Shown here in pieces: positions 21,249 to 51,091 of a stretch of 64,000 nucleotides of DNA. The notes under the pieces are model-generated. The model had not been told where the DNA came from and did no database searches. It saw only the letters and a list, made by a program, of their open reading frames with translations. Position numbers and translations under genes: made by a program. Every line of letters begins with the position of its first letter. Within the stretch, counting starts at the first letter, position 1. The stretch is from Eledone cirrhosa (Eukaryota): assembly GCA_964016885.1 (NCBI GenBank), contig OZ024747.1, positions 84,444,001-84,508,000 on the forward strand. Reading direction: 5' to 3'.

Positions 21249-21432
21249 TATATATATATATGTATATATACCAACTTATAATATTATAAAATTAAATCAA
21301 AAATGTTTTAACACTACAAGTGAAGTCATTCTTTTCCTTTTTTTTCAAATATATATATCTATATATATTTAAAATACACGTAAAAAAAGATATACATACA
21401 TATTTAATTATTTATTTTATTTTATTCATCAG

Positions 21433-21577
21433 AATGGGCAATTTGGCACCTGATCGTTTTCTGATGGTGTATGATCTACGTTTCATAAGAGCTATGGCAC
21501 CTATAAAAGTTGTTATTGATCCAGCATTCCTACGTTTTTTGCCAGCTTATACAAACAAACTGTGTGTTGTTTCACAA
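21433..21577 (+). CDS. PAN2: PAN2 exon (WD40)
   Basis: cag|A ATG...CAA|gtaagt; [48 protein letters not shown]. Confidence 0.93.
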
Positions 21578-30500: not shown

Positions 30501-32633
30501 AATCAACTATTTAATAAGCATTTAAAAACACTCCTAATTTTTATCTCACCATAATTACTCAGCTTATTTAAGCATTTTAGATTTTGTTCTGAAATTGTAC
30601 ATAATATGTATTGCACTATAATTTATGTGTGGGCATGGTTGTGAGTTAATAACCTTACTTTGCCAACAACGGGTTCTATCCCATTTCATGGCACTACAAC
30701 TGTCTTCTATTATATAATAATAATGAAATATTGTGTACAGTGCTCAGGTGCACTACAACTCATCAAAAAGTGTATGTATAGTACATAGGGTAATGTACAA
30801 ACGTCAGGAAAATGAACAATGCATGAGTCATGATATACACATGTGTGCATGTGTATGGAAGGGGTACATCAGGTGTAGTTTTGGCGTATTTCGGGAAGCA
30901 TGGAGGCCTTAAAGGATGCAGTGTCTCGGCAGCTAACAACTGATGCAGGTAGTTTGTTCCATGCTTCAGCAACTCTGAGTGTGAAAAGATGTTTACAAAA
31001 GTCATGGGAGCTGTGCTGTTTTCTGATTGTGTAGGCATGTCCACGTGTATTAGACACATGGAGATCAAAAAGGTGCTCAGGGTTGTTGTTGGCGAGATGG
31101 TTAATAACTTTGTGAGTGTTTACCAAGTCCATTGCCAGACGTCGGAGGTTCAATGAATCCATGCCCAGGGAAGCAAGGCGTTCAGAGTATGGTAGGTGTC
31201 TGATGGAGGGTATGCGCTTTGTTGCACGTCTCTGAACAGTTTCCAGGAGGCCAATGTTCTGAGCAAGATATGTAGATATATGTCATCATCATCATCATCA
31301 TCGTTTAACGTCCATCTTCCACGCTTGCATGGGTTTGGACAGGAGTTTTCCCACTTGAGGTAAGAGTGGTTGTCTTGCTCGCATAGGACTGTCTGGCGGG
31401 TTTTCTACGGCTGGATGCCCTTCCTAACACCAACCACGTTTACAGTGTGGACTGGGAGGTTTTTACCGTGTTACCTACACAGCCACATTACAGCGTGGAC
31501 TGTGTGTTTTTTTGTCGTGACACCTACACGACCTCATTTGTTTCGGACTGGATGTTGTGGTGCCAACATAACTTTACATTGAAAGGGGTGGTGTGGATGG
31601 GGTGGGGGTAGTGGGACGGGGGTGTATTTTGTTAGAGGTGCCTACTGACTGTAGTAGGTTTCACTTTGTACTTAGGTAAGGCGGGTCTTCTGTATGACTG
31701 TGTAGCGCCAAAGATCTCGGTCCAGTGACGTTGTCTTGGAGAGGTGTAAGTGTGTGAGGTCGGAATTTATCAAGTCGTCCCAGGTTTTTCTGGGTCTGCC
31801 TACTCCGTGGCTACTGTCTATTTTTATTGCCCTGCACTTTTTTATACAGCTGTCGTCTTTCATGCGCATCACATGACCGTACCAACGTAGTCTTCTCTCG
31901 AGTAAACAACATCTGATCCCTCTTATTTTTAATTTTTCCCTTAGTTCGTTTATGCTTTGCTGTTCACGTATATTACTATTACACATCCAGCGGAGCATGC
32001 AAGCTTCATTCCTCTCCAGTCTGCGTATATCTTCTGCACACAATGCCCAGGTCTCACTGCCATGTAACATTGCTGTTCGTATGCAGGCATCATACAGCCT
32101 GCCTTTCATTTTTAGAGAGAACCCTTTAGTGGCTAATAGTGGTATAAGCTCTCTGAACTTTTTCCATCCAGTTCTGACTCTAGCTACTGTACTTTCAGAG
32201 CACCCTCCACCACTGCTGATTTTGTCACCCAAGTAACGGAAGGTGACCACTATTTCTATAGAACTATTTGTGCAATGGAATGAACTAATATTCTGTGGGC
32301 ACTTGCTGCTACTTATTGCACCAGAGCACCAGCCACATATAACATCTATGTTCTTAGTTAGCTTACTTGTGATCCCACTATCCCACTACATCTTTTATGC
32401 ACCCATACTTTGCATTTGGGACATAAAATGGAGTTTCTACCTACTCCTTTCCTACACACTGAGCATGGCCATTTCCTGGATGGGACCGGTGCCCTATTTT
32501 CCTTCCTACAAACTAGAACTTTAGTCTTAGACAGGTTAATTTTAAGGCCTTTTGATTCTAGGCCATGCTTCCATGTTTGGAATTTCTTCTCTAGTTCGGC
32601 CATTGATTCAGCTATGAGCGTTAGATCATCTGC

Positions 32634-32800: not shown

Positions 32801-35800
32801 CTCGCCAGAGCAAGGTGCAACACACATGAAATATTAAACAATATTAGAAAAATATTTTTGTAAATAAGACAATAATTTATATACATACATAAATATACAT
32901 ATACTCCCACACATGTAACTATCGGCTGCCAAGTCAACATGGATACTTTTACCAGAATTTCACGAAGGTTAGGGGTTAATCTTACCTTTACTTTGTTATT
33001 TTTCCTTATCGTTTTTTTTTATTATAAAGTTGTGAATGTAATTGTGGCAAATACATTGTTGTGTTTTATTAATTTACTTATTTTGTTCTGGATATTTTTA
33101 CTTGGTCGTGCACCCAAATAGGGACTTGGTGTCGTTCTGTTTGTTTACAAATTATTTCCCCTTGAATTTATATATTCATATGTGTGTGTGTGGACAACCA
33201 CTGACATTTGTTTAAGTCCCATATGATCAATGTCCTGACCTCTCAGCGCAACAGTTCAAATTGTTTATATCAGTGGAATAAGTAAATAAGTAACTTACTT
33301 AGAACAGTTGGCATCCGAAAGGGCATCTGACCATAGAATACTGCCTCAAAAAAGATTCATCCAACCCAGCATAGGAAAAACTATACTCTAAAGCAACAAG
33401 TCTATAGTTATTTCTTAAGCCATACTGTTTCATACAAAACTATTTGTTTTAATTTGTCTATATTTATCTAAAAACTTTCCATCATAATTTTATCTAAGAA
33501 CATTTGTTATTTTGCAAACACAAACTTAATAGTTAGTTATATTATTAAATCCCTCCCAATTCAGTGCTTTTTATTAGAAATATAGTAAGAAAAGACTTAA
33601 AATAACTTGTCTATCTAATGTATTTTTCTTTTTTTTGCTCTCTTACAGATGATACCTCGATCAACATACCTAAAAGATATCGCAAAGTTGAAATAAAATA
33701 TTCCAAGCTTGGCATTGAGGATTTTGAATTTCGCTATTATAACAAAACCAATTTTGCTGGTTTAGAAACCCAAATTCCTAACGCTTATTGCAATGGAATG
33801 CTACAGGTCAGTTATTGAGTTCTCTATTAGCCTTTTTGAAACCAAACCACCTGAAACCACCACTGGTACTATGATAAAGAATGGTTTCCTTTAAAGTATT
33901 TATATTCATAAAAAATAATCTTCCATCAATTGTTTTGTCTGATGAACGAACTGGATGTTTTCATGCAAGAATTATATAGTTTCTTGAAATCTTCAGTAAT
34001 GAAATAATTATATTGTGTTGTTTATTATGTAATTAAATAGTTCTGTACAATACATAGAGCACTCTTCTTTCCTTTACCTTTTCTACGGAAATACTTAGCA
34101 CGTATAGATATAATATAATATATCAATGGCCAGCAAACACAGGCTGGGTATAGAAAGTGAAGCAACAAGGGATGTGCCCCAGCATGGTCTCGGTCAGATG
34201 GCTAGAACAGGTAAAAGAGTAATATAATATATAGCCAATTTCTTCCAGAGGAGAGAATGAGAGAAATAAGAAATGGGAAAGAAATATAGAGGAAGAATTC
34301 ACCTCAGTATTGAACTGATACTTTTTTTTATTGACCTTTGTCCAAGTCTTATTCAAAGGAGTTGCCCACATAGACGGGCTAGAGGATCACAGCTCACCCA
34401 TATGTTCTAATTTTTAGTTTGGTTTCTACAATCGGATACCTTAATCAATTAACAGAGTTTATTGGGTGCATTTTATCATAGCAAGAACACTAGGGAGGTT
34501 GCCTCGTCCTCAACAAGACTAATGAGCCCTCTTACATCTTATTCAACCACTTTACTGAGTGTACTAGATGTATTTTATCATGGTACCTAGATAACTTTGA
34601 TTATCATTAATTTGGTTTATAAATTTAATATTATTAGTTTTTTGTTCTATTTTATTCTCATTTTTCTTTTGTTTCTGTAGGTTTTGTATTTCATTGAGCC
34701 TCTGCGATGTGCATTGAAGTCACATCTCTGTGAGAGAGAATTCTGTTTGGCATGTGAACTTGGCTTTCTTTTCCATATGTTAGATGAACAAAAAGGACAA
34801 ACCTGCCAGGTATTTTTTACTTTTCTATCTATCTTATATTTATGTACAGGCATGGTTGTGTTGTTTAGTTTGCTTTGCAATCACACGGTCATGGGTTCAA
34901 TACTACTGCATGGCACTTTAGGCAAATACCTTCGGCTATAACCCAATGCCGACTAATACCTTGTGAGTAAATTTGGAGGATGGAAACAGTGTGAAACCCA
35001 CCATATATGTGTATACATATTATTTAAAGTTTAAGCAGAGTTTTTACCCTTTCTTAGGATCTTCTGCATATCTCTGGAATGGGTAAAATCAGAGATTTTC
35101 TACTTAAACTTTTAATCTGTTTAAATAGTTATTATTTACTCTACAGTATTTTATTTGCATATATATAACTTTTATTCACAGGAAAGTAGCATAAGTCTTT
35201 ATCTGGAATAATCTGATCAACACACAATGATACACAAATATGAAAAATGAATTGTTTCAGAATGGCAATTAAATTGTGTGGTTCTTATAATTAGACACCA
35301 ACCAACAATACCCAGGAATAAACATTATATATATGTTTATATGTTTGCTTGTTTCCTATAAAGATCCCTTCCATAAACTAGTGGGGATTCACACCAAGAA
35401 AGGCATCCAGCTGTAGAATATATCTTTAAAAAGCATGAAAAAACAACAAAGGTGATTTCAGATATTTTCTATATTTTACTTGCAGGCCAACAATTTTCTT
35501 CGAGCTTTCCGTACAATTCCAGAAGCTTCGGCCCTTGAGCTTATCATTGGCGATCATGACCAACTGCAAGGAAAGGCAAACTTCACCCGCCTCATCCAGA
35601 ACTGGCAGCGCTTTGTACACCAACAAGTTCATTCTGTATGTGTATCAAACAGTTCTTTCACTTGTGGTTTTCTCTTCCAATTTTATCATAACACATGCAC
35701 ACACCCATCTTATAGATATAAGGGCATATAAACATGCATACATATATGCATGTATATTTATATATACATCTGTACATCTATATATATACGCTCACACTGT

Positions 35801-37015
35801 AAAGCGGATGTGTAGGCACCATGGAAAAAAAGCACCCAGCACTCACTGTAAATGAGGTTGGTGTTAGGAAGGGCATCCAGCTGTAGAAATCAAGCCAGAA
35901 TCAGTTCCAGTATGAGCAAGATATGGTCAGCCGACTAGACACTGCCCACAACAAGACAACCCATCTAACCCATGCTAGCGGGGAAGAACGGACGTAAAAC
36001 GGTGATGATGATGATACTCTCATAGTCACATGTTCATAAGTTTACATATTGGGCCCATCATCATGAGACACTGGATGGTACTGCCTAACCCCTACTTTTC
36101 AGTGGTGCACCTTCAAATTTAAAAAGTAGAGTTCCTGAAATACATTCCTTAAAGTCTTGACCTTACTATGTTTAAAAAAAACAATGCAAAGAAGCTGATC
36201 ACAAAATTCCCTAGGGGATTAGAGTATCCACCCATCCAATGTACTCTAAAGCCTAGCGATGTATATACATAGTAACATGCAAATTTCTCTCTCGCTTTTC
36301 TCTTTCTTCTTTCTGTGTTTTCTACTCCCCACTCTCTCTCCCTCTCCACCATGCTGTCCTTCAACTCACCTTTTGATATCAAACCACCTGAAACTACCTC
36401 TAATTCTATAATAGAAAACTGCTTAATTTATTTTTTTTATATTTATCTAAAAGTCTTCCATCATAAGTCCCTCCTAATTCTTGATTATTTTCAGAATGAT
36501 TTCAAAATCACCTGTAGTGTTGTCTTACGTAAAAGATATGGTAACAAAAGAGCTAATCATGTGTAAATGTCTTGATTTTGCAGGAAAACTGTGTTAGAGA
36601 GCCACTCTACCACACAACTATACCTGATGGTGTCATTCCTGTTGATGGTTGCCAGCAGGAAATGCAAGAATACTTCTCCATGCCTGTCTACAATGAACCC
36701 TGCCCCATACAGGAGAACATTCCAGAAGCTGCACACATCTTTGATCAAAGCAGTGACACTGTGCCGAAAAGGTAACAACAATAAATACTGCAATAAATAA
36801 TAATGGTGGATCATGGATGGACTTGCTGATAGTGTAAGGGTTTTAATTTAGATATGAGGCCAGCAATTTGAGGTAGAGGGGTTGATTGTATTGAGTCAAG
36901 TGCACATATCTGTGGAATACTCAGTCACTTATGCTGCTAATTCAATGAACAGACAGTTCAGTTGGTCAATTATTGTTGAAACTAACAGAGATCCATTTAC
37001 TTCATGCGTAAGTAA

Positions 37016-37054
<39 letters not shown>

Positions 37055-37361
37055 ATGTTGAAGGATTCTTCAGTTGTGTCAAAAACATGACACCTTGCTC
37101 ATACGTTGTTTTTAGCTTGGTTTTTTTTTTTATGGCTGGAAGCCCTTCCTAATGCTAACCACTTTACAGCATGTACTGGAAGATTTTTGGTGGCACCAGC
37201 ACTACCTACTTCACAAGGGTAGAAAACAACAACAACTTCATTATTAGATTGCTATTTGTAGACACAGAATAGCTTAGTGGATAATCAGTTGAATTACACT
37301 ATAGGTGTTTTAGTGTATTTATTTGGAGAGGAGGATTAGGTAGAAAAACCTCTGAGAAATA

Positions 37362-37408
<47 letters not shown>

Positions 37409-40400
37409 TTATGTATTGTTATCTATAATTCAGTCCACCAAAAGCCAGTGAGCCAGAAGTTTCAATAGTAAGTCAACTGTTTGGAATTGAGATTGAAACC
37501 CTTCTACGATGTCGTTGTGGCCATGAGACCCACCGAGTCTCTCACCCTACCCTCACCAACTTATCATATCCTACCTCAAACTCAGGTCAGTTATATGTTT
37601 GCCTTTGCTATATTTCTCTTTTCCCTCTTCTGCCTTCTCTGACATCTAATAATAACAACAAAAATATGATTATGCTTCACTGATATCTATACATATCTGG
37701 TTTAGAATAGGTAGACTGTATCCCTGTATGTCATTAGAGGTGACTGAAAGGGTTGGTGCCAGAAAAGACATCTGGCTTAAAGGGACTCCATGATGAGTAT
37801 AAAATCTGTCATGAAGCCTGCAATGTTAACCACTGCTTTAACAGGTATTTGCTTCACTGAGAAGTTTTATTAAAACATGTCTGTTGCTTTCACCAGTTAG
37901 CTTTAATGAGAAGATCCATTTACATTGTCTTTATTTTTGAAAAATTTCATTTAGTTGACTTTATTGAAGTTATTTCCCTTGCTTGTTTTTATATTTTAAC
38001 CACACTGAGAATTTTTTGTCTATTAACTGCATGAATAATCTAAGTTAATTAAAGTTTTTCAACTCCCTAAATTAAATATGTGAGACCCTACTGTATGTGT
38101 TGTGTGTTTGTGAGTGTATAAAGGTTTTTCTCTCCTAACATTTACCACTCCTTCCACTATCACAAACAACTGATGTTTAACTCTTAAACATGATGTTTCC
38201 TTGTTTTTATATATTTCCAGATGATTCTCCTCAGAGCATTTCATTCCCTAGTGTCCTGTTCCACAGTTTAACATCAGAGCAAGTGATGCAAGCTTGGTGC
38301 AGTGTTTGCAGTCGTTATCAAACTCATGTGAGTAGACTATATGCCCACTTTTATCCTCTCACTCCATCTCCCTATCTCTCTTTCCCTCTACCTCCTCCTT
38401 CTCTTTACTCCTCACTCCCTCCACCCACCCTTCCTTCTCTCTATTACACGTCTCCCTCTATCAACCTTTGTGACACAGTGCATTTCTACTGTGGAAAATA
38501 TTTAAAAGGAAGAAGAGGAAATATGGGAAGCTGAAAAAGACTATTCAGGTGAAGAAGTCATTTTAACATTACTCACCGTTAGTGTAATATGTAATAATGA
38601 CATAAAGAGGTTTCACTTTGTTTTATTTGCAGGTTCAAAAGAAGCTCATAAAATCCCTTCCTGATATTCTAGCCTTAAACTGTGGCTTAGATAACCCTCG
38701 TGATGTGGAATTTTGGAAAACACAATTACAGGTGAATTTGCAGCTTTAATATCTTTTGCTGTTCGACTTTTTTTATTCATTTTTAATTTTATTTTGGTGG
38801 TGAATTGGTTGAGCCATTAGAACATCAGATAGAATGCTTTTCGGTATTCATTTTGGTTCTCAAGCGTGCCCTAAGTTCATAAAAAACTGCCATGGTTAAC
38901 TTCACCTTTCATCCTTTCGAGGTCGATAAAAAAGTAGCAGTCAAGTACTGGAATCAATTCTTTTTCTATATCTCTTTCTCACTTCCTCTCTATCACTCTC
39001 TCTCTTCTTCTTCTCTGGAAGTAATCTATTGTGTTCAGAACTAGAGAGGTGATGGGCCCCCACAAGGTTTAAGTGTATATTATAATGGCACCTCTATGAT
39101 TCCATCAGGAATCTATACATAACAACACCTTATCTCAGTATCCAGGCTGAAAGATTAATAACTAACATTTTCATTATTAACCTGGTTTGGGAGCATAACA
39201 TTACAAACTTTCTTACATAAAATTATAATAGAAAGCTTTTAGATCAATATAAACACCATAAAACTGATTGGATCAAACACAAAGCAAGCCATACTGAACA
39301 TAATTATACACCATGTGTGTTTGTATATTTATATATATCCCCATCTGTAACTCCTCTTTAAAAGTTACACATATATACATGCAATGCATTTCCTATTTCA
39401 GTTGTTTTACTATGATGTTTGCTTTTTAATTCCAAGGTCCTGGGTTCTAACCCTACATTTGTTCCTGTAAATAGTTATTTCACCAAAGTTACTCATACAT
39501 TTTCTGACAAAATCAATTACAAACAGATACATACACAGAACAGAAGGTGTTGAATATCTAAACCCTACTTACCATTCTTTTAACCCTTCCATTAGTGTGT
39601 TTCATTAGATACACACTCTACATGAATTAATTAACAAAGAATTTGGAGGAATTTACTAAAATTATTTCACTAAGATGATATTTGTAACATAACTAAACAA
39701 TATGTTAAGTTATATAAAATTATGTTGGAAGATTTTGATTTAAATAGGAAGCCTATATATGACCAGCTGCTTACAGTTGCATCTACCAAATTCATTCACC
39801 CAGCCTTAACCACCCCGGTTGTGAATTGCACTTCTTAGCCTCACAGCTATTTCTATAAAAAAAAGAAAAACTAATTTCATTCTTACTATCTTCTTTTGGT
39901 TTCTCAAAGCTTATAAAAAAAGATGTCACAGAACAGAAAGAAGAGATAACAAGTCCAAAGAAAAAACTGTGCCGTTATGGTAAACTCTGCAAACGGAAAG
40001 ATTGTTTCTTTCGACATGAACCAAATCCACAGTAAGTAAAGAGTGCGCTCAAGTCGTGTCAAAGACATGACAACCTCTCTAGTGTTGATGATTTACACAA
40101 TAAACACATCCAGTATACACTGTAAAGTGGTTGGTGATAGGACGGCCATCCTGCCAGAGAAATCTTGCCAAACAAACGTTTGGGAGGATCCTCAGTTGTG
40201 TCAAAGGCATGGCAACCTCTCCTGAGCACTCGGTGGAATGTGAGACCATACATAAGTGACACACAGATCCCTGGGAGATCAGTGGATCTGCTTCAGTATA
40301 GACTTGGTCTATATAGACCTGTCCAACCCTAGCTAGCAGGGAAAGCAGATGTTAAAACAACAACAACAATGATATTTTGTAGTATGTCTGGCATGTTATA

Positions 40401-43400
40401 TGTCTAGTGGCAATCCAACACTGGGGTCTCTCTCGCTCTCTGTTAAACCAGGCAATGGATTTTTGTAGAGTGTCCAAGATGTAGTGCACCAAGGGTGCAG
40501 CAATGCATCCTGAGGCCAATAGTGTAACTGAATTGTAGTAGTGCACCGGTGATGCAGGAGTCCATCTGGGGCATAGTTGTGCAAGAGTCTATCTGGAGTG
40601 TAGTAGTGTATTGTATGGTGTGATGAGGATACTGTGATATGTTTTGCACTTGTGATTCTTCATGCTTTAATGATTTCTGCTTTTTTCCTTTACTGTTTAT
40701 TTAGAGGGAGGAGGATTAGACAAAGTTTATTTCTATAGCAAAAATTAAATTGAAATTGAAACACATAAAAATGTAAAGAAACAAAACAAGTATAGTGATG
40801 TTGTGATGATGATGATGGTGGTGAGTTTGTTTTAGAAATACTTCTAAGGGAAAACTTTATTATTAATCTTCATCCTTTTCAGGAGTTATGACCAGTCAAG
40901 TGATGGTGGTGAATCAGTTAATGATGAAAATACTCCATCTAGCTATGTTCCAATTGGCCTACGTCTTTCTCTAGCAAACAACACATTTACAGTGACTAGT
41001 TTAACAGAAGAGGTAAGTAGATGTTACAGAAAAAAAAGGTTGAAATCTGTCCCAAGCCACAAGACCTTGAGAGAGACTTTATAAGTATTATAAGGGGCAG
41101 TGAATTGGCAGTATCAGTAGAGGGTCGGCCACCATGCTTTGCAGCATAGAGCTATATCCCTTTCTATTCTGAATTCAAATCCCACCGAAGTTAACTTTGC
41201 CTTTCATCCTTACGGAGTTGATAAAATAAAGTACCAGTAATGTGCTGGGTAATTGCTGGCCTTGTTCCAAAAGTAGAAACAATTATTAGAATGGGCATAA
41301 GGTGGTGAATTGGCAGAATCATTAGAGTATTGGACAAAATGCTTTGCAACTTTTTGTTATAACTCTTTAATATTTGAGTTCAAATCCTGCCAGAATTAAT
41401 GTTGTCTTCCATTCATTCGAGGTTGAGAAAATAAAATACCACTCAATTAGAGGTTGATAAAATCGACTTACTCCTCCCAAAAAATGTCTGGCCTTGTGCC
41501 CTTGTTGGAAACAATTATTAGAATGGACAGTGGAGTGGCAAAGTCATTAGAGCGCCAGATAAAATATTTTGCAGTATTTGTTCTGGCACTCTGCACTCCA
41601 AGTTCAAACCCCACTGAGGTCAAATTGGCCTTTTATCCTTTCAAGTTCAATAAATAAAGTATCAGTCTAATATTTGGGTCAATTTCCTTTCTCCCTCTCT
41701 TGAATGACACTGCCTATGATTTTCATATAATTTTGAAGATAATCAAGAATTTGTAGGGATTTAGTTAACTAACTTTCTCATTATTAAACTTGTGTTGGAA
41801 CATAACTTAATAACAATTCTCACATAAAATTATGATGGATAGTTTTTAAATGTATATAAACATTTTAAAAGAAACATTTCTCTATCATAGAACAAGGGGT
41901 GATTTCTGATGGTTTGGTATCAAAGGGGTTAAATCTTGTGCTTTTTCCATCCAATCTATACCAGCATGAGAAACAGATGTTAAACGATAATATGGTATGT
42001 GTCTGATCAGTGGGGTTGAAGGTAAAAGTATGGCTTGCATTTTTATAGATTGTGTTTGTCTATGTTCATGGATAGCATTGGAATGGTGTAGATTTGTTTA
42101 CATTCATGTTGAGGTAATTGAAGGTTTTAGTTACATAGATTTATGGGATACTAGAGAGAAGTTGGGCAAGCAGGAATGTCATTGAAAGAAGGGGAAAAAG
42201 CAGAGTACCTTTGAGAGGCACAGGTCAAGTAGGATGCCTTTGAGAGGAGGAGGATAAGCAGGGTGTTACTGAGAGGAGTTGGACGAGTAGTTTGTCCCTA
42301 AAAGGAGTTGCGGAAGTAGAGTGTCACTGAGAACCAGGTAAGTAAGGTGTCTCTGATATAAAGATCCCTCGGTGGGATCAGCTATTATTGATTTGCTTGA
42401 ATTTGTGGCTAGCATTGGATTGGTGTAGATTAGTAGTTACATATATTTATAGCAATGTCAACCATTCCTCTCTAACAGCCTTGTGATATTTTTACCACTT
42501 TCTTTCATTTTCTTTCTCTTAATGATGGTATAATTATCTCAGGGCAAGTCCCCACCACCAGACGAGTTCACTAAAGACTATGAGATCTATGCCACTGTGG
42601 CACATATTAAAGATACAAAAACCTCAGGTAACTTAGTCAGTTGTATCAAAGTTGGCAAGAAGTACCACCAGCGTAAAGAAAAAGTCACCTGCACCCAGTG
42701 GTATCTGTTCAACGACTTCTCTATCACACCAATTGAATTAGTAAGTTCAGATCTTCTTAAATTTTTGGTTTGATATATCATGTTGTTTCTATTGTTTTGT
42801 TTTTTTTCTACAAACCAGTCCAACCATTTGAGATAATGGAAAGGGAATGGGGTATAAAGACTGACAATGATAGGAAGGAAGAGGAGGAAATAGAAGAGGA
42901 TGAGTATAAAAAAGAATGTAGTTAGAAGAAAATTACAATGTTTTCCAGACTAGAAGGAATTATTTACATGAAAGAATCCATGTCAACTATATCCACTGAC
43001 TATTGTGGCATCAGCATTAGAGGGTTTGTCTGACATTGACGCAACTGAAGAGCCCTCTCTACCCAATGGCAGGGAGGACTGCATAATGCCATGGAGTGAT
43101 AAGTATATATATATAAATTAAGTATAATGAGCTATCCGTTTAGATCTGCTGCTATCCACTCATTCAATGAATTTACAAAAATTGCATGTTGGAAATACGA
43201 ATTTGCAATCCAGAGTGGACACTATACGTTAAATAGTGGATAAACAGCTTAGTGTGAGAACCAAAAATATGCTCCAAACTGTACAGTTTTGTTGCTACGT
43301 CCTGAGTGCAGCAGATGCATCAGCAATCACTACACACAAGTCGTACAATATTTCCAATAATTACAAACATTACATAACTATGACTGGCACAGCAATTCAT

Positions 43401-46400
43401 CAATGGAATTCAGTCCTAATCATACCAGGAGATTTCATCCAAGAGACTGCCAAGGTGAAAGTGGAACTTCACAGTGATAGTGATAGCAGTTTCATGCTGT
43501 GGGAGAATCCTGTGACTTTTTAAAGAAGAAAGCAATAGAATTCAGCCATTAGGAAGAAGCTCACTATTGGTGGTACACTTCAAATAGTTGAAAAGGCTCT
43601 GAAGCTCTCAAACTGGTTAGTTATGTGAATAACAAAGACAGTAATGCAAAAATACATACAAATTGAACTAATATAAAAGAAAAAGTGTTCAACTTATGGT
43701 TAAAGGTATGTCTGTCACCTGGGAAAAATTATAAATTAAGTATAAAATCACAAGTAAAATGTAATGGTTAAATGTTGTAGATATTAAGTGAGCAAGATTA
43801 TCAAAATTATCCATGAACATTTTCATATTAATAAATATACCTACAAAATTGTTGTTCCCCTAAGTTTTCAAAGTTCAATCTATTGTCCTTGACTCTGAAT
43901 ATATCATTTCAGTCAGAAGCCTTGCACTTTGACATGGATTGGAAAGTACCCTGCATCATATATTTTACTCGTAAAAACCTCAACCAATACTATGATCTAA
44001 CGGGTGAGTACTTGGCTTTGCCTAGATATACACTATTGGACTACTCGTACAGTAGTTGGGTTGGATCTTAGCCTCAAGTGATCCCTGATTTAGCAGATCT
44101 TTGATTAATTTTTAACATCCTGTACCACTTCAAACCACATGAACGAGACATTCTTGAAACGTATATAACAACACTAAGACTGCAACGCAATTGTGACATA
44201 AAAGTATGATCTAGTTTAGCACACTCTGTTTATTTTATTTTACGATTTGCCGGTGTACTTAGTGTCACGAATGACCAGAAAAAGGAGGCCTGGAAATGTC
44301 ATTATGAGAGACTGATGAATGTGGAGAACGAATGGGAGAGAGAGAAATTACCCTTGGTAGATCCGACAGAGGGACCAGCTATTGAGATTGACGAATATAG
44401 GGTCCAAGAGGCGATTAGGGAAATGAAAAATGGTAAGGCGGCCAGACCATCGGGAATAGTTGCTGAGATGCTGAAGGCATCAGGGGACGTAGGCACTAAA
44501 CTGGTTGCACGCATCATCAATCAGGCTATATATATGGTGGTGTCATACCCAAAGACTGGTGCAACAGTATTCTCATAAATTGCTACAAAGGTAAAGGGGA
44601 TGCTTTGGAGAGGAGCAATTATAGGGGTATAAAACTGATAGATCAGGTTATGAAAGTGGCAGAAAGGATTTTAGCACAACTAATTAGAGAAAGGGTCAAA
44701 CTAGATGAGATGCAGTTTGGTTTTGTGCCTGGGAAGAGTACAACAGATGCCCTCTTCTTGGTGAGACAAATGCAAGAGAGGTTCTTAGAGAAGAATAAGC
44801 CACTATACTTAGCCTTTGTTGACCTAGAGAAGGCCTTTGATAGGGTACCCCGATCTGTCATCTGGTGGTCCCTAAGGAAGCTAGGTGTTGAGGAATGGCT
44901 TGTGAGGACAGTGCAAACTTTGTACAGAGGTACTCTCAGTAAAGTCAGGGTAGGAATGGAGTTTAGTGAGGAATTCCAGATACAAGTAGGAGTACATCAG
45001 GGTTCGGTCCTCAGCCCGCTCTTGTTCATTATAGTCCTCCAAGCCATAACAGAGGAGTTTAAGACTGGCTGTCCATGGGAACTTCTCTATGCTGACGATC
45101 TGGCTCTTATAGCAGAATCAGTAGAGGAGCTAGAGAATAAATTCCGGCTATGGAAACAGCAGTTGGAAGCAAGAGGACTGAGAGTAAATCTAGCTAAGAC
45201 AAAAGTGTTGATGAGTAGAAAAGAGGACAAAACCCTGATTCCGTCAGGGAAATGGCCATGTTCGATATGCAGAAAAGGAACTGGCATAAATTCTATAAAA
45301 TGCACACAATGCAGGTCCTGGGTACACAAGAGATGTAGCGGGATAGCAGGCAAACTAACAGGTAGGGAGAAATATGTATGCAGTAGATGTACAGGGAAAT
45401 TAGACAGTAGAAGTCGCACTGATAGACACATTTTTCAAATGCGAGAGGGCGCTATAGAAGTGGTGGATAGCTTCCGGTACCTAGGAGATCAGATTAGCAT
45501 GGGAGGAGGGTGTTCCGAGGCCATAGTATCTAGAATAAGGACGGGTTGGAAGAAGTTTAGGGAGCTGCTTCCTCTGTTGACGAAGAAGGGTTTCTCCCTG
45601 CGTACGAAAGGCCGGTTGTATGATGCCTGTGTGAGGAGCGCGATGCTGCATGGTAGTGAGACATGGGCAGCAACCGCAGAGGATATGCGACGGCTGGAGA
45701 GAAATGAGGCAAGCATGCTCCGTTGGATGTGCAGTGTAAATGTGCGTGAACGACGCAGCATAAATGTGTTGAGAGAGAAACTGTGTCTGAGAGGGATAGA
45801 ATGTAGTGTACGGGAGAGGAGACTGAGGTGGTATGGACATGTGATGCGCATGGAGGATGACCGATGGGTGAAGAAGTGCCAGGAAATGCCAGTTGAAGGA
45901 AGACGTGGTAGAGGTAGACCACGAAAAACATGGGCGGAGGTGATGAGAACAGACCTCAGATCATTGAAGCTCACGGTGGAGATGACGAGGGACCGTGACG
46001 AGTGGAGAGATGCTGAATAAGACCCGTCCCACCCTTGCAAGCAGGGAAAAGCGGACGTAAAATGATGATGATGATGATGATGATGATATATGGGGTTTTT
46101 TTTTTTTCTAGTGCAAAATCCCATCACACAGAATGTTCTGCTGGACGAAAGTGGAGTTGTGAATCCTAAAATTACAGAAAAGACCTTTATTCCATTAACA
46201 CCAGATGAGTTCCCGAAAAAGGGCTCCCTGGTGGCCCTTGATGCAGAGTTTGTCTCATTAGATCAGGTATCGTCTTTATTCATATTTCTACTGTTGGTTT
46301 ACTTTCAAATAGTTGTTGGTATTTATTTAATCCAAGATTAGCTCTAATTGAGCAGCTCTAAGATCAAAAGCTTACTGTGTACTTGATGCAGTTTATCATG

Positions 46401-48414
46401 GCACCAACATTACCACCTCACAGAGTGTACTTGGTGCAATTTATCATGGCACCAGCATTATTAAAGAGTGTACTAGGTGCAATATATCATAGTACCAATA
46501 AATAATAGTTTACAAAAAAAAAGAAAAATAATGTAAGTCCTTTCTTATAGAAAAATGGAAGGTTTAACCTTTTCATTACCATATTCCTAATGAAAGACAC
46601 TGCCTATAACTTTCAAATAATTTTGAAAATAATCAAGAATTTAGAGGAATTTTGTAATATAATTAACTTTCTCATTATTAAAATGATATTCAAAACACAA
46701 CTTAACAAATGTTCTTAAAATATTATGATGGAAGGTTTTTAAATAAATATAAACACTTTAAAACAGGTGGTTTTTCATCATAGAATCAGGGGGAGTTTCA
46801 AAGAGATCGGTACCAAAAGAGTTAAACAGTCTACTTTCTTCATAGTATATTGTAATATTTTCTGTTTTGAATCCCTGACAGGAACAAGCAGAATTGAAAA
46901 GTGATGGAACACGGTCCACAGTGAAACCTTCACACCTTGCACTTGCTCGTTTGACCTGCATTCGGGGGTACGTTCTATAACATAATAAAACATTCATCAA
47001 ATATATATCTGTTATTTTTGTTTTCCCAATCCTATTTTCCTTTAACCCTTTTATGACTGTCATTATTGTCATTGTTTTACATCCATTTTTTCATGCTTTC
47101 ATGGGATTTTTCAAGAACAGCATCTCCCCATTCATTGCAGTCCTTTGTCATCTCTTGTGTCAGCTTCAGTGATTTGAAGTCAGCTTTCACAAACTCTGCT
47201 CAGGGTTTTCTTTGGTCTCCCTCTAATTCAGCTTCCTTCCATTGGGATTTCTTGGCACGTCTTCACCCAACATGCATTCCTAATGAAACACTCTTTATTT
47301 TAATTCATTAATAAAATATTTGGAAATATTTGCTTGAATTATTGCAGGGCATTGTCATTCAGCATTACTCATCAGCCATATATACATCTTACAGTTTCTC
47401 CAGTCAGTAGAGGTCCTTATCCTATATTTATCCATGTTCCCTGCCATATACCATCACACATCATACAGTATCATCACTTACTGTAGCTCCTTTGCTCTCA
47501 TTCACTGTTCCATGTTTCACTGTCACTCACTTTAGCTTTCTCCCTTATTCGCTTCTCCTGTTTCATCCCCTTCTTACACCATCACACATCACTCTACTGT
47601 TCCTTCAAACCATACAGATCTTTTTCTATTACTAATTGAAATATTTACCTCTAATTTCTTTCCATTTTAGATATGGCCCTCTACATGGTGAACCCTTCAT
47701 TGATGACTATATTGCCATGCAAGAACAGGTCGTTGACTATCTGACAGAATATTCTGGCATTAAACCTGATGATCTCATTGCTTCAGTTTCCACAAAACAT
47801 TTAACTACGCTCAAGTCAACTTACATGAAACTACGATACCTTGTAGATCAGGGAGTTTGCTTTGTTGGCCACGGACTTAAAAAGGACTTCAGAGTTATAA
47901 ATATTTCAGTAAATAATGAAACCTTTAATTTTACATTTAATCCTTATATATTTATATATATATATATATATATGTATTTGTATATATATATGTGTGTGTT
48001 TGTGTGTGTATTGTTGTTTGATAGAGTAAATTTTAAATCCAAACAAATCCAGCCATGACTGGTTTTTTTTTTGGTATATCTTGGACTACATTATCCAATG
48101 TTCTATGGTTAATATTAGTTGTTGTTGTTGTTGGACCTCTGTTGACTCCAACACTGAGTGTTCCAGCTGTTTGATCAATGGCTCAACAACCTGTTCAATT
48201 ACAATATATGAGAAGACGCTTAAATCTGCAAATTTTCCTTCACCTTCATAAACATCAATTTGCCATCTTCTTTGTTGTGGTGGTAGCAGCAGTAGTAACA
48301 TTTTTTTTTTCTTTTGTAAGGGAAAAAAATTATGTAACTACTTCCTAGATACACAAATTTCTTGTATTTTATATGTATATGTGTGTGTGTGTGTATATAT
48401 ATATATATTTGCAG

Positions 48415-48466
<52 letters not shown>

Positions 48467-51091
48467 GCAAGAATGGACATAAAATGGTGATGATCATATA
48501 CACATACACATTCTGTTATTTTCCTTTCTTCTAGGTTCCCAAGAAACAAATTTTTGACACTGTTGAATTATTACGTCAACCCAGACAAAGGAACATATCT
48601 CTCAAGTTTTTGGTTCGCTACTTTTTAAGTTAGTGAAAATCTTTTCTTTCTTCATCATCGTTATTGCTTTTGTGCCAGTTTTTCCATGCTAAGCAATGCC
48701 TGGAGGAGACATTTTGAAGTAGAATTCTGTCGCTGGATGCACTTTTTGGTGTTAACTCTCACATTTTTGTTTGTTTTTATAAATAAACTACCAATCTTGG
48801 CACATATAATAACTGAACTGTGAAGTGAAGACACAGAGGCAAACACATAGACACATATATATATATTATCATCCTTATCTCACATCTATTTTCCATGCTG
48901 GCATGTGTTGGACAGGTTGGCACAGACCAAGTCAGTATTTAGTCAGAGCTACTGTCCTCCCAGAAAGGCCAACAACCATGTCTTGCTTACATTTCTTTAG
49001 ATGTGGTTTCTTCAGCTTCATTCTCTTCTTAACACCATTCTCCTTACAGGTGCCTTTTATTATGGCACCAGCACTAGTTAGCTTGTCATGTTTTTAACAT
49101 AACTGAAGTGTCCTTTCAACCCTTTGTTTGGCATGGTTTCTATGACTGATGTCCTTCCTCACACCAACCACTTTACAGGGTGTACTGGGTGCCTTTTATC
49201 ATGACACTAGCACTAGGAAAATTGTCAGTCGACTTAAGTAATCTTTCTATTCTTAGCTAGTCACCCACTTCACAGAATGTACTGAGTGCATTTTATGGTG
49301 ACACCAACACTGGGGTAGGAGATGCTTTGTCCCATGGCAGATATGTTTGGTGGTGAGAGTAGAAGAGGGTTAAGGTGGATGACAAATGCAATGGATGTAT
49401 GAAAGGTCTCCTCCAGTACAGCATGTCACCAGTCTTATTGTTAATCTATTATGGAAAACCACATGTCCCCATAACTGAAACAATTCTGTTATATATCACA
49501 TTAGTGATAATACTTAAATTTACCGTTATTTTTTCACTGCCTATTTGATATCGATATTATTATTATCATCATCGTTATTGTTATTACTGTTATTCGGGGT
49601 TGATTTAACTGACTTTCCCTTTCCCCACAAATTGTTGGCCCTGTGCCTAAAGCAGAAACCATTATTTCCCTTTGCGATCTGAGTTCAAATCTCGCCGAGG
49701 TTGACTTTGCCTTTCATACTTACGGGGTCGATAAAATAAAAGTACCAGTAATGCACTGAGTAATTGCTGGCCTTGTGCCTAAAGTAGAAACAATTATTAT
49801 TATTGCTCCACTATTTGAGTCTTGATAATTTACGTGTATCCTTTATCTGTCTTCCTAACTAGAGTAGCAACTAGTTATCACCAATATTTTTTTTTTTTAC
49901 CCCATCCCCCAGTTTTCAAAATGTCCAGGGGGTCCCACTGAAGTAACCCATGCTCACACAATGGCTAATAAGATAGCGACCGACAGACACCTTGATTGTT
50001 CCAGGCCTAGAAATCTGCAAAAACAGACTTCTATATTATATCTCAAAGATTCAACTCGATGCAAAAATCATAGTGCTTAAAATTGCAATAGGATCCTTAT
50101 CCTGGAAAATCCTGGAGCCCAGCTCCACAGTTAGTCATGTGGCTGTTTCAAGTTAGGACTATAACTGCAGCAGTCAATACATAAAATAATACATCTCTTA
50201 ATCAGTTAATCCAACAGTAAATGGCAGAGATAGTGAGCCATGATAAAATAGTTTAAAAGATAGTACACATTCACTTTTTGTTTTTTACTTACTCTTCCAA
50301 CAATACCACACTAAAGTGTTCTAGGATATTTTGACTATTTTCCTTGTTTAGTGTCATATATTAACACTTAGCTTCCTAATTTCATGTCATATATCTCCCC
50401 AGCCCCCATTGCTTTGCTCCCTTCGTTTTGACCTGACCCCAGGTCAATTGGGCTACAGGGAGTGACACCAGGCTTGACCACTACTGTAAGTTGGTATACA
50501 TGACTACAATGTCACTAAGAATGACCGTGGCAGGTAAGACACCAAAATAACTGGTGCCTTGGGAGGGTGGCAGTGGTGCTGTAACATCCCAGCAACCATC
50601 ATCCATATACATTAAATGTCCATACAAATGTAATCTTCTCTCTTACACTACATCTGATTCTTCTAATACCCAGTTTTTCTCTCAGTTCCACTATGCTCCG
50701 TCATTCATGCGCAGTTAGGGTTGATAAAATATGGACTATTTATATACTAGGGTTCAATTCAGTTGACTGTACTCATTACACTTTGAAAGATGCCATAAAT
50801 TAATAATGATCAAAGACAGGGAAGCTGTTAACTAGTATTATTTATAATGAGAAATTGTTTACTGATGATCTACTTTCAGAAATGGACATCCAGTCTTTTA
50901 CACACGACTCGATTGAGGATGCACGTAGTGCTCTACGTTTGTACCGCTTGTATGAGGAAATGGCAAAAAAGGGAGAAACCCACATCAGGAATGTAATTAA
51001 AAACCTGTACGAATATGGACGGAAAGTTCAGTGGAAGTTACCACCACCAGAAGAACTTGCTGAATCTATGCTTCCAGTATTTACATGCTGA
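21433..51091 (+). CDS. PAN2: PAN2 poly(A)-specific ribonuclease catalytic subunit; spliced, 21 exons in window, 5'-incomplete (~987 aa)
   Basis: All intron phases are compatible and all introns are GT-AG. Motifs: [10 protein letters not shown] (WD40), LLSDWP and VGYAPNP (linker), [21 protein letters not shown] (pseudo-USP Cys box), [29 protein letters not shown] (DEDDh). Confidence 0.96.
22070..22660 (+). mobile_element. Old degenerate RTE fragment
   Basis: [12 protein letters not shown]...KFREL similarity with stops and frameshifts. Confidence 0.8.
23144..23285 (+). CDS. PAN2: PAN2 exon (WD40)
   Basis: cag|GTT...ACT G|gtaag; VGHFQVLD...[17 protein letters not shown]. Confidence 0.92.
24576..24652 (+). 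CDS. PAN2: PAN2 exon
   Basis: tag|GT TAT...CCA|gtgagt; [26 protein letters not shown]. Confidence 0.92.
25280..25407 (+). CDS. PAN2: PAN2 exon (linker)
   Basis: cag|GTG...AG|gtaagt; [21 protein letters not shown]...[14 protein letters not shown]. Confidence 0.92.
26464..26627 (+). CDS. PAN2: PAN2 exon (linker)
   Basis: tag|G GCG...G|gtatag; [35 protein letters not shown]... Confidence 0.9.
26893..27540 (-). mobile_element. 5'-truncated RTE LINE (family B)
   Basis: [14 protein letters not shown]...GRPRKTW; (CAT)n tail at 26893. Confidence 0.92.
27557..28420 (+). mobile_element. 5'-truncated RTE LINE (family B)
   Basis: ORF 27593-28072; (GAT)n tail to 28420; head-to-head with the previous copy across ~18 bp of TA. 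Confidence 0.93.
28740..29600 (-). mobile_element. Old degenerate RTE (BovB-like) RT fragment
   Basis: [26 protein letters not shown] and [21 protein letters not shown], in broken frames. Confidence 0.8.
29787..30121 (+). mobile_element. Full-length tRNA-headed SINE with CORE-like body and RTE-derived 3' tail
   Basis: A box TGGCTTAGTGG, B box GTTCAATTC, body GCAAGACACTTTATTTCAC...CAGCTGTAGAAATG, then RTE 3' UTR sequence and (GAT)n. Confidence 0.85.
30122..30275 (+). mobile_element. Non-autonomous Helitron 3' fragment
   Basis: Reverse-complement homolog of 52532-52690; ends in a decayed hairpin and GCCATTCTGCTAAT. Confidence 0.65.
30712..31270 (-). mobile_element. 5'-truncated CR1 LINE
   Basis: [12 protein letters not shown] upstream, then [13 protein letters not shown]...TRGH...[13 protein letters not shown]; (ATT)n tail near 30715. 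Confidence 0.88.
31283..32638 (-). mobile_element. 5'-truncated RTE LINE (family B) starting at YADD
   Basis: ORFs 32358-32825 and 31672-32250 include the PHD-type cysteines; (CAT)n tail at 31283. An opposite-strand ~44-bp RTE tail follows at 32665-32708. Confidence 0.93.
33649..33806 (+). CDS. PAN2: PAN2 exon (start of pseudo-USP domain)
   Basis: cag|AT...CAG|gtcagt; [47 protein letters not shown]. Confidence 0.95.
34124..34222 (+). mobile_element. Short 3' end of the same CR1/L2-group family as 1154-2280
   Basis: GCAACAAGGG..GTGCCCCAGCATGG...AACAGGTAAAAGAG matches the reverse complement of 1160-1250. Confidence 0.75.
34681..34809 (+). CDS. PAN2: PAN2 exon
   Basis: tag|GTT...CAG|gtattt; [35 protein letters not shown]...CQ. 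Confidence 0.95.
35486..35635 (+). CDS. PAN2: PAN2 exon
   Basis: cag|GCC...TCT|gtatgt; [20 protein letters not shown]...[16 protein letters not shown]. Confidence 0.95.
35791..36015 (+). mobile_element. Solo 3' UTR of RTE family A with complete terminus
   Basis: Matches 11355-11534 and continues AGCGGGGAAGAACGGACGTAAAACG then (GAT)n. Confidence 0.85.
36584..36771 (+). CDS. PAN2: PAN2 exon (poorly conserved insertion in pseudo-USP domain)
   Basis: cag|GAA...AG|gtaaca; open frame; its phase 0 to 2 is needed to join the flanking exons. Confidence 0.8.
37434..37585 (+). CDS. PAN2: PAN2 exon
   Basis: cag|T CCA...G|gtcagt; [24 protein letters not shown]...NLSYP. Confidence 0.9.
38221..38327 (+). 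CDS. PAN2: PAN2 exon
   Basis: cag|AT...CAT|gtgagt; [29 protein letters not shown]. Confidence 0.93.
38633..38731 (+). CDS. PAN2: PAN2 exon
   Basis: cag|GTT...CAG|gtgaat; [33 protein letters not shown]. Confidence 0.93.
39910..40031 (+). CDS. PAN2: PAN2 exon encoding a CCCH zinc finger
   Basis: aag|CTT...CA|gtaagt; [40 protein letters not shown]; phase 0 to 2 bridges the neighbouring exons. Confidence 0.85.
40883..41012 (+). CDS. PAN2: PAN2 exon
   Basis: cag|G AGT...GAG|gtaagt; SYDQSSDGG...[25 protein letters not shown]. Confidence 0.87.
41094..41690 (+). mobile_element. Three head-to-tail tRNA-derived SINEs (Nin-like core family)
   Basis: Three units starting ~41094, ~41300 and ~41525, each with a TGGCA A-box-like motif, a TTCAAA(T/C)CC B box and a TTTCATCC...GATAAAATAAAGTACCAG-like core. 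Confidence 0.8.
42543..42740 (+). CDS. PAN2: PAN2 exon (pseudo-USP His-box region)
   Basis: cag|GGC...TTA|gtaagt; [54 protein letters not shown]. Confidence 0.95.
43913..44003 (+). CDS. PAN2: PAN2 exon
   Basis: cag|TCA...G|gtgagt; [30 protein letters not shown]. Confidence 0.94.
44252..46087 (+). mobile_element. 5'-truncated RTE LINE (family C; RT, PHD-type finger, ~40-nt 3' UTR)
   Basis: ORFs 44315-44578 and 44605-46020 are joined by a frameshift in a TATATATAT run (~44527-44535); YADD present; (GAT)n tail 46062-46087. Confidence 0.94.
46112..46266 (+). CDS. PAN2: PAN2 exon (start of DEDDh nuclease)
   Basis: tag|TG...CAG|gtatcg; [28 protein letters not shown]. Confidence 0.95.
46564..46825. 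mobile_element. MITE with TTAA flanks and imperfect TIRs (piggyBac-like)
   Basis: TTAA-CCTTTTCATTACC...GGTACCAAAAGAG-TTAA. Related copies at ~24680-24950, ~33827-34030(-), ~36365-36556(-), ~39579-39750 and ~41700-41932. Confidence 0.65.
46882..46967 (+). CDS. PAN2: PAN2 exon
   Basis: cag|GAA...GG|gtacgt; [29 protein letters not shown]. Confidence 0.95.
47671..47908 (+). CDS. PAN2: PAN2 exon
   Basis: tag|A TAT...TCA|gtaaat; GEPFIDDYI...[16 protein letters not shown]...[16 protein letters not shown]. Confidence 0.96.
48535..48628 (+). CDS. PAN2: PAN2 exon
   Basis: tag|GTT...A|gttagt; [31 protein letters not shown]. Confidence 0.94.
49678..49805 (+). mobile_element. tRNA-derived SINE, partial
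   Basis: Near-identical to 15572-15690. Confidence 0.85.
50880..51091 (+). CDS. PAN2: PAN2 last coding exon
   Basis: cag|AA ATG...TGA; [21 protein letters not shown]...[13 protein letters not shown]. Confidence 0.96.

What the first reader, a model, noticed from the sequence alone, without database searches (positions are those of the whole stretch)
39910..40031. PAN2 carries a Nab2/ZC3H14-type CCCH zinc finger inside its pseudo-USP domain
Seen: a 122-nt exon, absent from the ORF track, encodes [19 protein letters not shown], i.e. C-x5-C-x4-C-x3-H with an aromatic two residues after the first Cys and another before the His. Its phases (0 to 2) are needed to join exon 38633-38731 to exon 40883-41012. 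Skipping it alone frameshifts; skipping it together with the next exon (252 nt) keeps frame. Established: this spacing is that of the polyadenosine-binding fingers of Nab2/ZC3H14, and in yeast and human the poly(A)-binding CCCH finger of the complex is on PAN3, with PAN2 described as WD40-USP-DEDD only. Inference: this lineage may have a deadenylase with its own poly(A)-reading module, possibly switchable by two-exon skipping. The finger may be shared with other invertebrate PAN2s, so novelty needs checking.
Basis: partly seen in the sequence, partly recalled or inferred. Interest (0 to 1): 0.8.

Follow-up and report, generated by a model that had tools for sequence, protein, structure and literature searches.

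The report
Overlooked zinc finger in invertebrate PAN2
The enzyme PAN2, which trims mRNA poly(A) tails, carries a small zinc-finger motif in this octopus, in most other invertebrate groups sampled and in single-celled relatives of animals, but not in vertebrates; the motif likely grips adenosines, so the textbook yeast and human enzymes would be missing a part that most animals keep.

Summary
Exon 39910-40031 has canonical splice sites, keeps the PAN2 frame and encodes a C-x5-C-x4-C-x3-H motif inside the pseudo-USP domain.

It is not a cephalopod novelty. The motif sits at the same site in 51 of 53 non-vertebrate PAN2 proteins and 0 of 67 vertebrate-block ones. It occurs in cnidarians, an acoel, a nematode, a tardigrade, a sea spider, echinoderms, hemichordates, amphioxus and two choanoflagellates. 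It is absent in Ciona, an ichthyosporean and 105 of 105 more distant PAN2 representatives. So it likely arose by the choanoflagellate-animal ancestor and was lost in tunicates and vertebrates.

All 77 fingers of this spacing keep the three residues that Nab2 fingers use to bind two adenosines (PMC3874189). Single copies score under Pfam's cut-off, which may explain why it was missed.

Octopus PAN3 appears to have lost its own poly(A) finger: the reverse of vertebrates.

The proposed two-exon skipping switch is not supported. Zinc and RNA binding are untested, no RNA run of this species was listed, and key subscription papers could not be read.

The parts
39910..40031 (+). PAN2 coding exon (122 nt, phase 0 to 2) carrying the Nab2-type CCCH finger
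   Evidence: 90% identical to residues 789-830 of Octopus PAN2 P0002
39970..40017 (+). Finger motif C-x5-C-x4-C-x3-H, with Arg and Tyr after the first Cys and Phe two after the third Cys
38633..38731 (+). Upstream exon (99 nt): pseudo-USP core strand and start of the long helix that leads to the finger
40883..41012 (+). Downstream exon (130 nt): acidic disordered linker, then two confidently predicted core strands of the pseudo-USP domain
   Evidence: pLDDT 91 and 86 for residues 851-870
40894..40895 (+). Cryptic AG that would be in frame with the donor at 38731; no evidence of use
42543..42740 (+). Exon (198 nt) with the C-terminal blocks of the pseudo-USP domain
   Evidence: UCH_1 E 2e-14
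33648..38336 (+). Six exons encoding the N-terminal part of the pseudo-USP domain (approximate tblastn bounds)
46111..51091 (+). Exons of the DEDDh exonuclease domain, catalytic acidic residues and His present, stop at 51089-51091
21389..26626 (+). Exons for the rest of the WD40 domain and the PAN3-binding linker (from residue 230 of P0002; residues 1-229 did not match in the window)

Best explanation
The exon encodes a Nab2-type CCCH motif at a fixed site in the pseudo-USP domain of PAN2, kept from choanoflagellates through most invertebrate groups sampled and absent in Ciona and vertebrates; it likely binds zinc and likely clamps up to two adenosines, which would give PAN2 its own weak poly(A) grip. 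Shown: the exon, the motif, its position, its conservation and its distribution. Predicted: it sits at the tip of a long helix and is followed by a disordered linker, so it would be a flexibly tethered module. Inferred: like the single PAN3 finger (60-100 uM in yeast) it would bind weakly and add avidity, helping to hold the tail near the exonuclease. Also inferred: it overlaps in function with the PAN3 finger, which would allow either to be lost. Vertebrates keep only the PAN3 finger, octopus seems to keep only the PAN2 finger, and many molluscs keep both. The exon is most likely constitutive in octopus; amphioxus has one- and two-finger isoform records.
For: 77 of 77 fingers of 5-4-3 spacing (from 78 proteins; 3 further fingers have one extra residue) have Arg after Cys1, Tyr/Phe two after Cys1, Gly next, and Phe/Tyr two after Cys3. 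These are the base-stacking positions that mark a two-adenosine Nab2 finger (PMC3874189, passages). Best PDB sequence matches are Nab2 fingers. Present in 51 of 53 non-vertebrate rows and 0 of 67 vertebrate-block rows, and absent from human PAN2 chain 9qtu_C. Present in 29 of 45 representatives in one clade and 0 of 105 outside it. Named carriers include two Salpingoeca species, Symsagittifera, Hypsibius and Mesorhabditis. Tandem duplication occurred twice, in amphioxus and S. urceolata, as expected for a weak avidity module. AlphaFold2 gives pLDDT about 73 for the finger core between a helix (778-802) and a disordered linker. The host protein is a poly(A) nuclease whose UCH-like domain helps shape the RNA entry cavity (PMC6547884). 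Octopus PAN3 lacks its finger in 9 of 9 models and in genome scans.
Against: No binding or zinc data. A single finger binds weakly, and Nab2 needs tandem fingers for high affinity (PMC3874189, PMC4158885). The single finger is below the Pfam cut-off. Vertebrates, Ciona and at least five unnamed intact PAN2 sequences in the same clade lack it, so it is dispensable. Complementarity with the PAN3 finger rests on few lineages and was not tested statistically; many lineages keep both fingers. Fingerless PAN3 isoforms coexist with fingered ones in Pomacea and Dreissena, so missing fingers in single models can mislead. Four O. bimaculoides models and the Lottia model lack the finger; I read these as annotation faults but did not check their genomes. 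Tree support for the finger-bearing clade is only 0.79, midpoint-rooted.
Confidence: 0.62

Rival explanations
1. The finger is real and folded but binds a protein partner (for example PABPC, PAN3 or an adaptor) or another adenine-containing ligand such as ADP-ribose, not the poly(A) tail.
For: Weak matches to the ADP-ribose-binding fingers of APLF (E 0.097 and 0.25). Single CCCH fingers can serve as protein contacts (general knowledge, recalled). Position relative to RNA not measured.
Against: The APLF alignment lacks the third Cys and needs a gap. All three Nab2 RNA-contact positions are invariant in 77 of 77 fingers while neighbouring surface positions vary.
Confidence: 0.17
2. The finger binds RNA but not the poly(A) tail as such: it reads A-rich 3' UTR elements or binds single-stranded RNA loosely, giving transcript selectivity or simple tethering.
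For: Nab2 fingers can recognise spaced adenosines elsewhere in transcripts (PMC3874189 abstract). In vertebrates RNA adaptors give PAN2-PAN3 its specificity (bioRxiv 10.1101/2025.09.27.678968, passages). One finger reads at most two bases.
Against: The tail is the nearest and most abundant A-rich ligand for this enzyme. The analogous PAN3 finger raises affinity for polyadenylated RNA (PMC4158885).
Confidence: 0.14
3. One reading: skipping the finger exon together with the next exon makes a fingerless but active PAN2 isoform.
For: The 252-nt double skip keeps frame. Amphioxus records show that finger number can differ between isoforms (26-residue second finger).
Against: 0 of 51 isoform and cluster records show that deletion. 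The second exon encodes strands 855-861 and 864-870 at pLDDT 86-91, a block also aligned in human PAN2, so the skip would likely break the domain.
Confidence: 0.04
4. The motif is a cephalopod-specific insertion, a chance pattern or a pseudo-exon.
For: No RNA of this species could be laid. O. bimaculoides models lack it.
Against: Conserved at the same site from choanoflagellates to amphioxus. The O. bimaculoides models also lack the conserved upstream core exon, and two carry low-complexity filler there.
Confidence: 0.01

Closest known systems
Nab2 / ZC3H14 (MSUT2) polyadenosine-binding CCCH fingers, Pfam PF14608; yeast Nab2 fingers 5 and 7 (PDB 2lhn, 5l2l)
   Same: C-x5-C-x4-C-x3-H spacing; basic residue after Cys1; aromatic two after Cys1 and two after Cys3.
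   Different: Single copy (two in amphioxus and S. urceolata), not an array of up to seven; embedded in a loop of a cytoplasmic nuclease, not in a PWI-domain nuclear protein; a single copy scores under the Pfam cut-off; binding untested.
PAN3 N-terminal CCCH finger (yeast, human; PDB 4CYK per PMC4158885)
   Same: A single CCCH finger in the PAN2-PAN3 complex; proposed role of adding weak poly(A) selectivity.
   Different: Different spacing (x8-x5/6-x3) and different family: octopus PAN2 scores 2.5 bits against a PAN3-finger profile where PAN3 controls score 64-68. It is on the catalytic subunit, one per complex instead of two. Not a moved copy of the PAN3 finger.
Yeast, Neurospora and human PAN2 (PDB 6r5k, 4czw, 9qtu)
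   Same: WD40, linker, pseudo-USP and DEDDh exonuclease in the same order, with catalytic residues present.
   Different: Human PAN2 has a loop at the same site without the Cys/His ligands. The fungal chains were not aligned across this loop; 105 of 105 representatives outside the finger-bearing clade lack any CCCH match.
PBZ ADP-ribose-binding fingers of APLF (PDB 2kuo, 2kqb)
   Same: Similar first half: Cys, then Tyr-Gly, Cys, then Arg-Lys.
   Different: E 0.097-0.25 only. In the alignment the third Cys of this finger has no Cys counterpart in APLF, whose fingers use two His ligands (recalled).

Membership tests
Nab2/ZC3H14-type CCCH finger (PF14608) | C-x5-C-x4-C-x3-H ligand spacing | tested here: met
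   same spacing as yeast Nab2 fingers 5-7
Nab2/ZC3H14-type CCCH finger (PF14608) | Basic residue after Cys1, aromatic two after Cys1 and two after Cys3 (two-adenosine code) | tested here: met
   77 of 77 fingers; code from PMC3874189
Nab2/ZC3H14-type CCCH finger (PF14608) | Score at or above Pfam's curated cut-off of 25.8 bits | tested here: not met
   17.9 bits for this exon; 14.9-23.9 bits in five other PAN2 proteins, no hit at E 0.1 for full-length Octopus P0002; met only by two-finger amphioxus PAN2, 34.6 bits
Nab2/ZC3H14-type CCCH finger (PF14608) | Tandem array of fingers | tested here: not met
   single in octopus; two copies only in Branchiostoma isoforms and S. urceolata
Nab2/ZC3H14-type CCCH finger (PF14608) | Binds one zinc ion and binds adenosine selectively | not testable with these tools
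   needs biochemistry or NMR
Nab2/ZC3H14 protein family | PWI domain plus finger array, nuclear poly(A)-binding protein | tested here: not met
   host protein is PAN2
PAN2 deadenylase | WD40 + pseudo-USP + DEDDh exonuclease in one chain with catalytic residues | tested here: met
   88% identity of exon 42543-42740 to Octopus PAN2; WD40 residues 1-229 lie outside the matched part of the window
PAN2 deadenylase | Deadenylase activity in complex with PAN3 | not testable with these tools
   PAN3 gene found in the same genome; activity not testable
PAN3-type CCCH finger | C-x8-C-x5/6-C-x3-H at the N-terminus of PAN3 | tested here: not met
   2.5 bits against 64-68 bits for controls
PBZ (APLF-type) finger | Two Cys and two His ligands (recalled) | tested here: not met
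   third ligand is an invariant Cys; weak gapped match only

The most novel reading that the evidence does not exclude
The ancestral animal PAN2-PAN3 deadenylase had two unrelated poly(A)-reading fingers: a Nab2-type finger on PAN2, gained by the choanoflagellate-animal ancestor, and the older finger on PAN3. They are interchangeable, and lineages dropped one or the other: tunicates and vertebrates the PAN2 finger; octopuses, and perhaps insects and crustaceans, the PAN3 finger. In octopus (and perhaps flies) the catalytic subunit would then be the complex's only adenosine-selective finger, and amphioxus would tune it by splicing in a second copy.
Probability: 0.35. Interest if true: 0.78.

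Novelty: new variant of a known kind. Interest (0 to 1): 0.62.

Why it matters
PAN2-PAN3 is one of the two main deadenylases. The papers read describe PAN2 as unable to bind RNA well alone and as relying on PAN3 and PABP, from yeast, other fungi and human. If most invertebrates keep an adenosine-binding finger on PAN2 itself, that model does not carry over unchanged to molluscs, cnidarians, nematodes and probably insects. The pseudo-USP domain would be more than a scaffold, and vertebrates would be the derived, reduced case. It gives a precise, cheap test: a 20-residue module with four ligands and three predicted contact residues, and natural one- and two-finger forms in amphioxus.

Tried and rejected
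RNA evidence for this species: no RNA holder listed. The three listed runs (one sample) gave contigs that run through exon and intron, so no splice joints could be read.

So I could not view the DNA behind the unnamed cephalopod-like PAN3 proteins or the unnamed full-length PAN2 proteins; PAN3 finger status in squid and cuttlefish stays open.

ESM Atlas with residues 740-900 of P0002 gave only generic UCH clusters at 0.82 or less: no information. Two searches of earlier scan findings returned nothing. A genome search with the exon peptide found no second copy; three other hits had E 4.8-5.7 and are unrelated CCCH-like stretches.

Rejected: cephalopod-specific gain; two-exon skipping switch; relocation of the PAN3 finger to PAN2; PBZ identity.

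Rows set aside: 12 of 35 hits are fragments of 120-257 residues without the finger, which I read as not reaching the site (22 of the other 23 have it). Of 16 fingerless representatives inside the 45-member clade, 8 are fragments or models that lack or garble the region, 1 groups with vertebrates, 2 are Ciona and its unnamed sister, and 5 are unnamed with intact flanks. A possible relic of the PAN3 finger in the first octopus PAN3 exon (one Cys followed by hydrophobic residues) was seen by eye but gets no profile score, so it is not claimed. No complex prediction was run, as RNA cannot be scored there.

Jonas 2014 (PMID 24880343) and Tang 2019 (PMC6555765) were not held.

Full report
OBSERVATION. 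The exon is as described. Window 39910-40031 has a pyrimidine-rich AG acceptor and a GTAAGT donor and encodes a 40-residue peptide with C-x5-C-x4-C-x3-H at 39970-40017. With its neighbours it gives an open frame. Skipping it alone gives 14 stops, and skipping it with 40883-41012 keeps frame. The next exon ends at 42740. An in-frame cryptic AG at 40894-40895 means the phases alone do not force inclusion. The motif is the only match of that spacing in six frames of the window. Contigs of three runs of one sample match the exon letter for letter.

THE GENE. Twenty-one tblastn segments from 21389 to 51088 match residues 230-1230 of Octopus PAN2 P0002. Exons on both sides of the finger match Pfam UCH_1, and a later one RNase_T. 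In P0002 the finger (810-825) lies within the UCH_1 span 499-934. The exonuclease motifs are present. The genome is that of an octopod, by 88% identity of exon 42543-42740 to Octopus PAN2.

DISTRIBUTION. Of 35 hits, 23 are 787 residues or longer and 22 of these carry the finger; 12 short fragments do not. One search listed the best 120 of 1754 hits. The finger is in 51 of 53 non-vertebrate rows and 0 of 67 vertebrate-block rows (64 named vertebrates, 3 unnamed). Named carriers: Octopus, chiton, bivalves, gastropods, Capitella, two nemerteans, Lingula, crinoids, Acanthaster, Diadema, three hemichordates, Branchiostoma, corals and Exaiptasia; also Argonauta and Sepia and the sea spider Nymphon. 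Human PAN2 (9qtu_C) has a loop there without the ligands. The two exceptions are an O. bimaculoides model and the Lottia model. All four O. bimaculoides models also lack the conserved upstream exon, two with low-complexity filler in its place, and the limpet Patella has the finger; I read these as annotation faults, unchecked.

A profile search of 1.84 billion representatives listed its best 150 of 9466 hits. The finger is in 29 of them. On a FastTree tree (994 columns, these 150 plus 18 named references, midpoint root) all 29 fall in one clade of 45 representatives with support 0.79; 0 of the 105 outside it have any CCCH match. I could name 10 representatives. Carriers: Salpingoeca helianthica (one finger), S. 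urceolata (two), the acoel Symsagittifera, the tardigrade Hypsibius and the nematode Mesorhabditis; two carriers stayed without a species name. Ciona savignyi and the ichthyosporean Chromosphaera lack it with intact flanks, and the Diaphorina model lacks the whole region. Unnamed carriers group with Diaphorina, so insects probably have it; Drosophila and C. elegans were not named. Read on the accepted species tree (recalled, not tested here), the simplest history is a gain by the choanoflagellate-animal ancestor and loss in the tunicate-vertebrate line. The gene tree does not join Ciona to vertebrates, so one loss or two cannot be told. Five unnamed intact sequences in the clade also lack it, so there were further losses or they lie just outside.

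WHAT KIND OF FINGER. The best PDB sequence matches are yeast Nab2 fingers 5-7 (E 7e-6 over the three fingers; 9-15 bits each), then weak APLF matches. In 77 of 77 fingers of 5-4-3 spacing the four ligands, Arg at 2 and Gly at 4 are invariant; position 3 is Tyr (64) or Phe (13), and position 14 is Phe (71) or Tyr (6). [quoted passage not shown] Pfam scores single copies at 14.9-23.9 bits, under the cut-off of 25.8; only two-finger amphioxus PAN2 passes, and it is the one row with PF14608 precomputed. This likely explains why the module is missing from standard annotation. It is not the PAN3 finger: 2.5 bits against 64-68 for controls.

STRUCTURE. AlphaFold2 on O. vulgaris isoform P0038 with 65 sequences (mean pLDDT 70.6, pTM 0.55) predicts a helix at 778-802, the finger with block pLDDT 55, 73 and 62 (801-830), a disordered linker at 828-847, then strands 855-861 and 864-870 at pLDDT 91 and 86. 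The nuclease part of that isoform is modelled poorly. From recall, this loop corresponds to blocking loop 1 of USP enzymes; not tested. [quoted passage not shown]

SPLICING. Of 51 isoform and cluster records compared with 9 references, 46 have the finger, four O. bimaculoides models and one truncated oyster model do not, and none shows the double skip. Unnamed full-length cuttlefish-cluster proteins of 1228 residues lie on contigs of about 4.0-4.1 kb, one of them on 30 contigs; these must be intronless, so I infer spliced transcripts that include the finger. The double skip would remove core strands and is unlikely. In amphioxus, 10 of 15 records have two fingers and 5 have one, differing by 26 residues, which suggests a cassette exon for the second finger.

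PAN3. The 5' part of PAN3 is on G000:C28 (minus strand) and the 3' part on C308. Its first matched coding exon corresponds to the Octopus N-terminus. A profile of 13 metazoan PAN3 fingers finds nothing above 7 bits in C28:70666001-70736000, about 55 kb upstream included. Genome-wide searches with a bivalve PAN3 N-terminus (3 matches) and with PF18345 (24 matches) give none on C28 or C308; these searches score only their best candidates. All 9 Octopus PAN3 records lack the finger, two or three being partial. Of 33 PAN3 proteins chosen from the 112, 15 have it (chiton, bivalves, Lingula, Tubulanus, a centipede, a tick, three fungi) and 18 do not, including 8 of 8 named insects and crustaceans. 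Pomacea and Dreissena have both fingered and fingerless isoforms, so absence from single models is weak evidence; the octopus case rests on the genome scans too. Human, mouse and Xenopus PAN3 have the finger (PMC4158885 supplement 7).

MECHANISM. Most likely the finger binds zinc and stacks up to two adenosines, adding a weak, flexibly tethered grip on the tail to the catalytic subunit. The yeast PAN3 finger binds A15 at 60-100 uM and its loss slightly slows deadenylation (PMC4158885, section 6 and passages); a similar modest effect is expected. Sequence, site, conservation and distribution are shown. Fold is predicted. Zinc, RNA binding and function are inferred. Vertebrates (PAN3 finger only), octopus (PAN2 finger only) and many molluscs (both) fit overlapping roles, but this was not tested statistically.

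PRIOR NOTICE. Ten library searches (one search was for Nab2 background) brought up no listing that reports a finger in PAN2. Passages of PMC4158885, PMC10590902, PMC9570436, PMC10318531, PMC6547884, PMC3985635, PMC12990809 and bioRxiv 10.1101/2025.09.27.678968 mention none; I read passages, not whole texts. For PMC4158885 I also searched 12 of 13 supplements. bioRxiv supplements are closed. Jonas 2014 and Tang 2019 were not held; Schafer 2014 and Christie 2013 were not looked up. Their alignments may show fly PAN2, and database profiles other than Pfam may already flag the motif.

VERDICT. Real, strongly conserved, apparently undescribed domain of a well-studied enzyme: a new variant of a known kind. 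Interest 0.62.

Noticed in passing
G000:C28:70681007-70681333 (-), L023/L026; G000:C308:22213-63286 (+): PAN3 of this genome is split between chromosome-scale contig C28 (5' half) and small contig C308 (3' half). Its N-terminus has no CCCH finger, as in all 9 Octopus records, while other molluscs keep it.
   Followed up: yes
proteins P0124, P0332-P0345 (Branchiostoma): Amphioxus PAN2 records come with one or two tandem fingers (5 and 10 of 15), differing by 26 residues: likely a cassette exon that tunes finger number.
   Followed up: partly
proteins P0230, P0239, P0243, P0267, P0270, P0273, P0293, P0298: All 8 named insect and crustacean PAN3 proteins examined lack the N-terminal finger, while a tick and a centipede have it: possible loss in Pancrustacea.
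   Followed up: partly
proteins P0211/P0321 (Pomacea), P0229/P0324-P0327 (Dreissena): PAN3 isoform records with and without the N-terminal finger in one species, echoing the fingerless splice variant reported for Chaetomium (PMC4158885).
   Followed up: no
proteins P0003, P0037, P0040, P0041: O. bimaculoides PAN2 models lack two consecutive exons, including a conserved core exon; probably an assembly gap patched by annotation.
   Followed up: partly
window 56826-57971 (-): A 381-residue open frame of tandem C2H2 zinc fingers just downstream of PAN2 on the opposite strand, typical of octopus C2H2 expansions (recalled).
   Followed up: no
window 44500-46020 (+), also 27494-28072, 31672-32385, 54100-54870: Reverse-transcriptase-like open frames and fragments of LINE-type retroelements in PAN2 introns and downstream (by eye).
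   Followed up: no
window 1-21388: No match to residues 1-229 of Octopus PAN2, so the 5' exons probably lie upstream of the window behind a long intron.
   Followed up: no
L002:1501-1599 and L003 (G000:C1): Two short open frames with a C-x8-C-x4-C-x3-H pattern and similar flanks on C1, perhaps parts of a repeat family.
   Followed up: no
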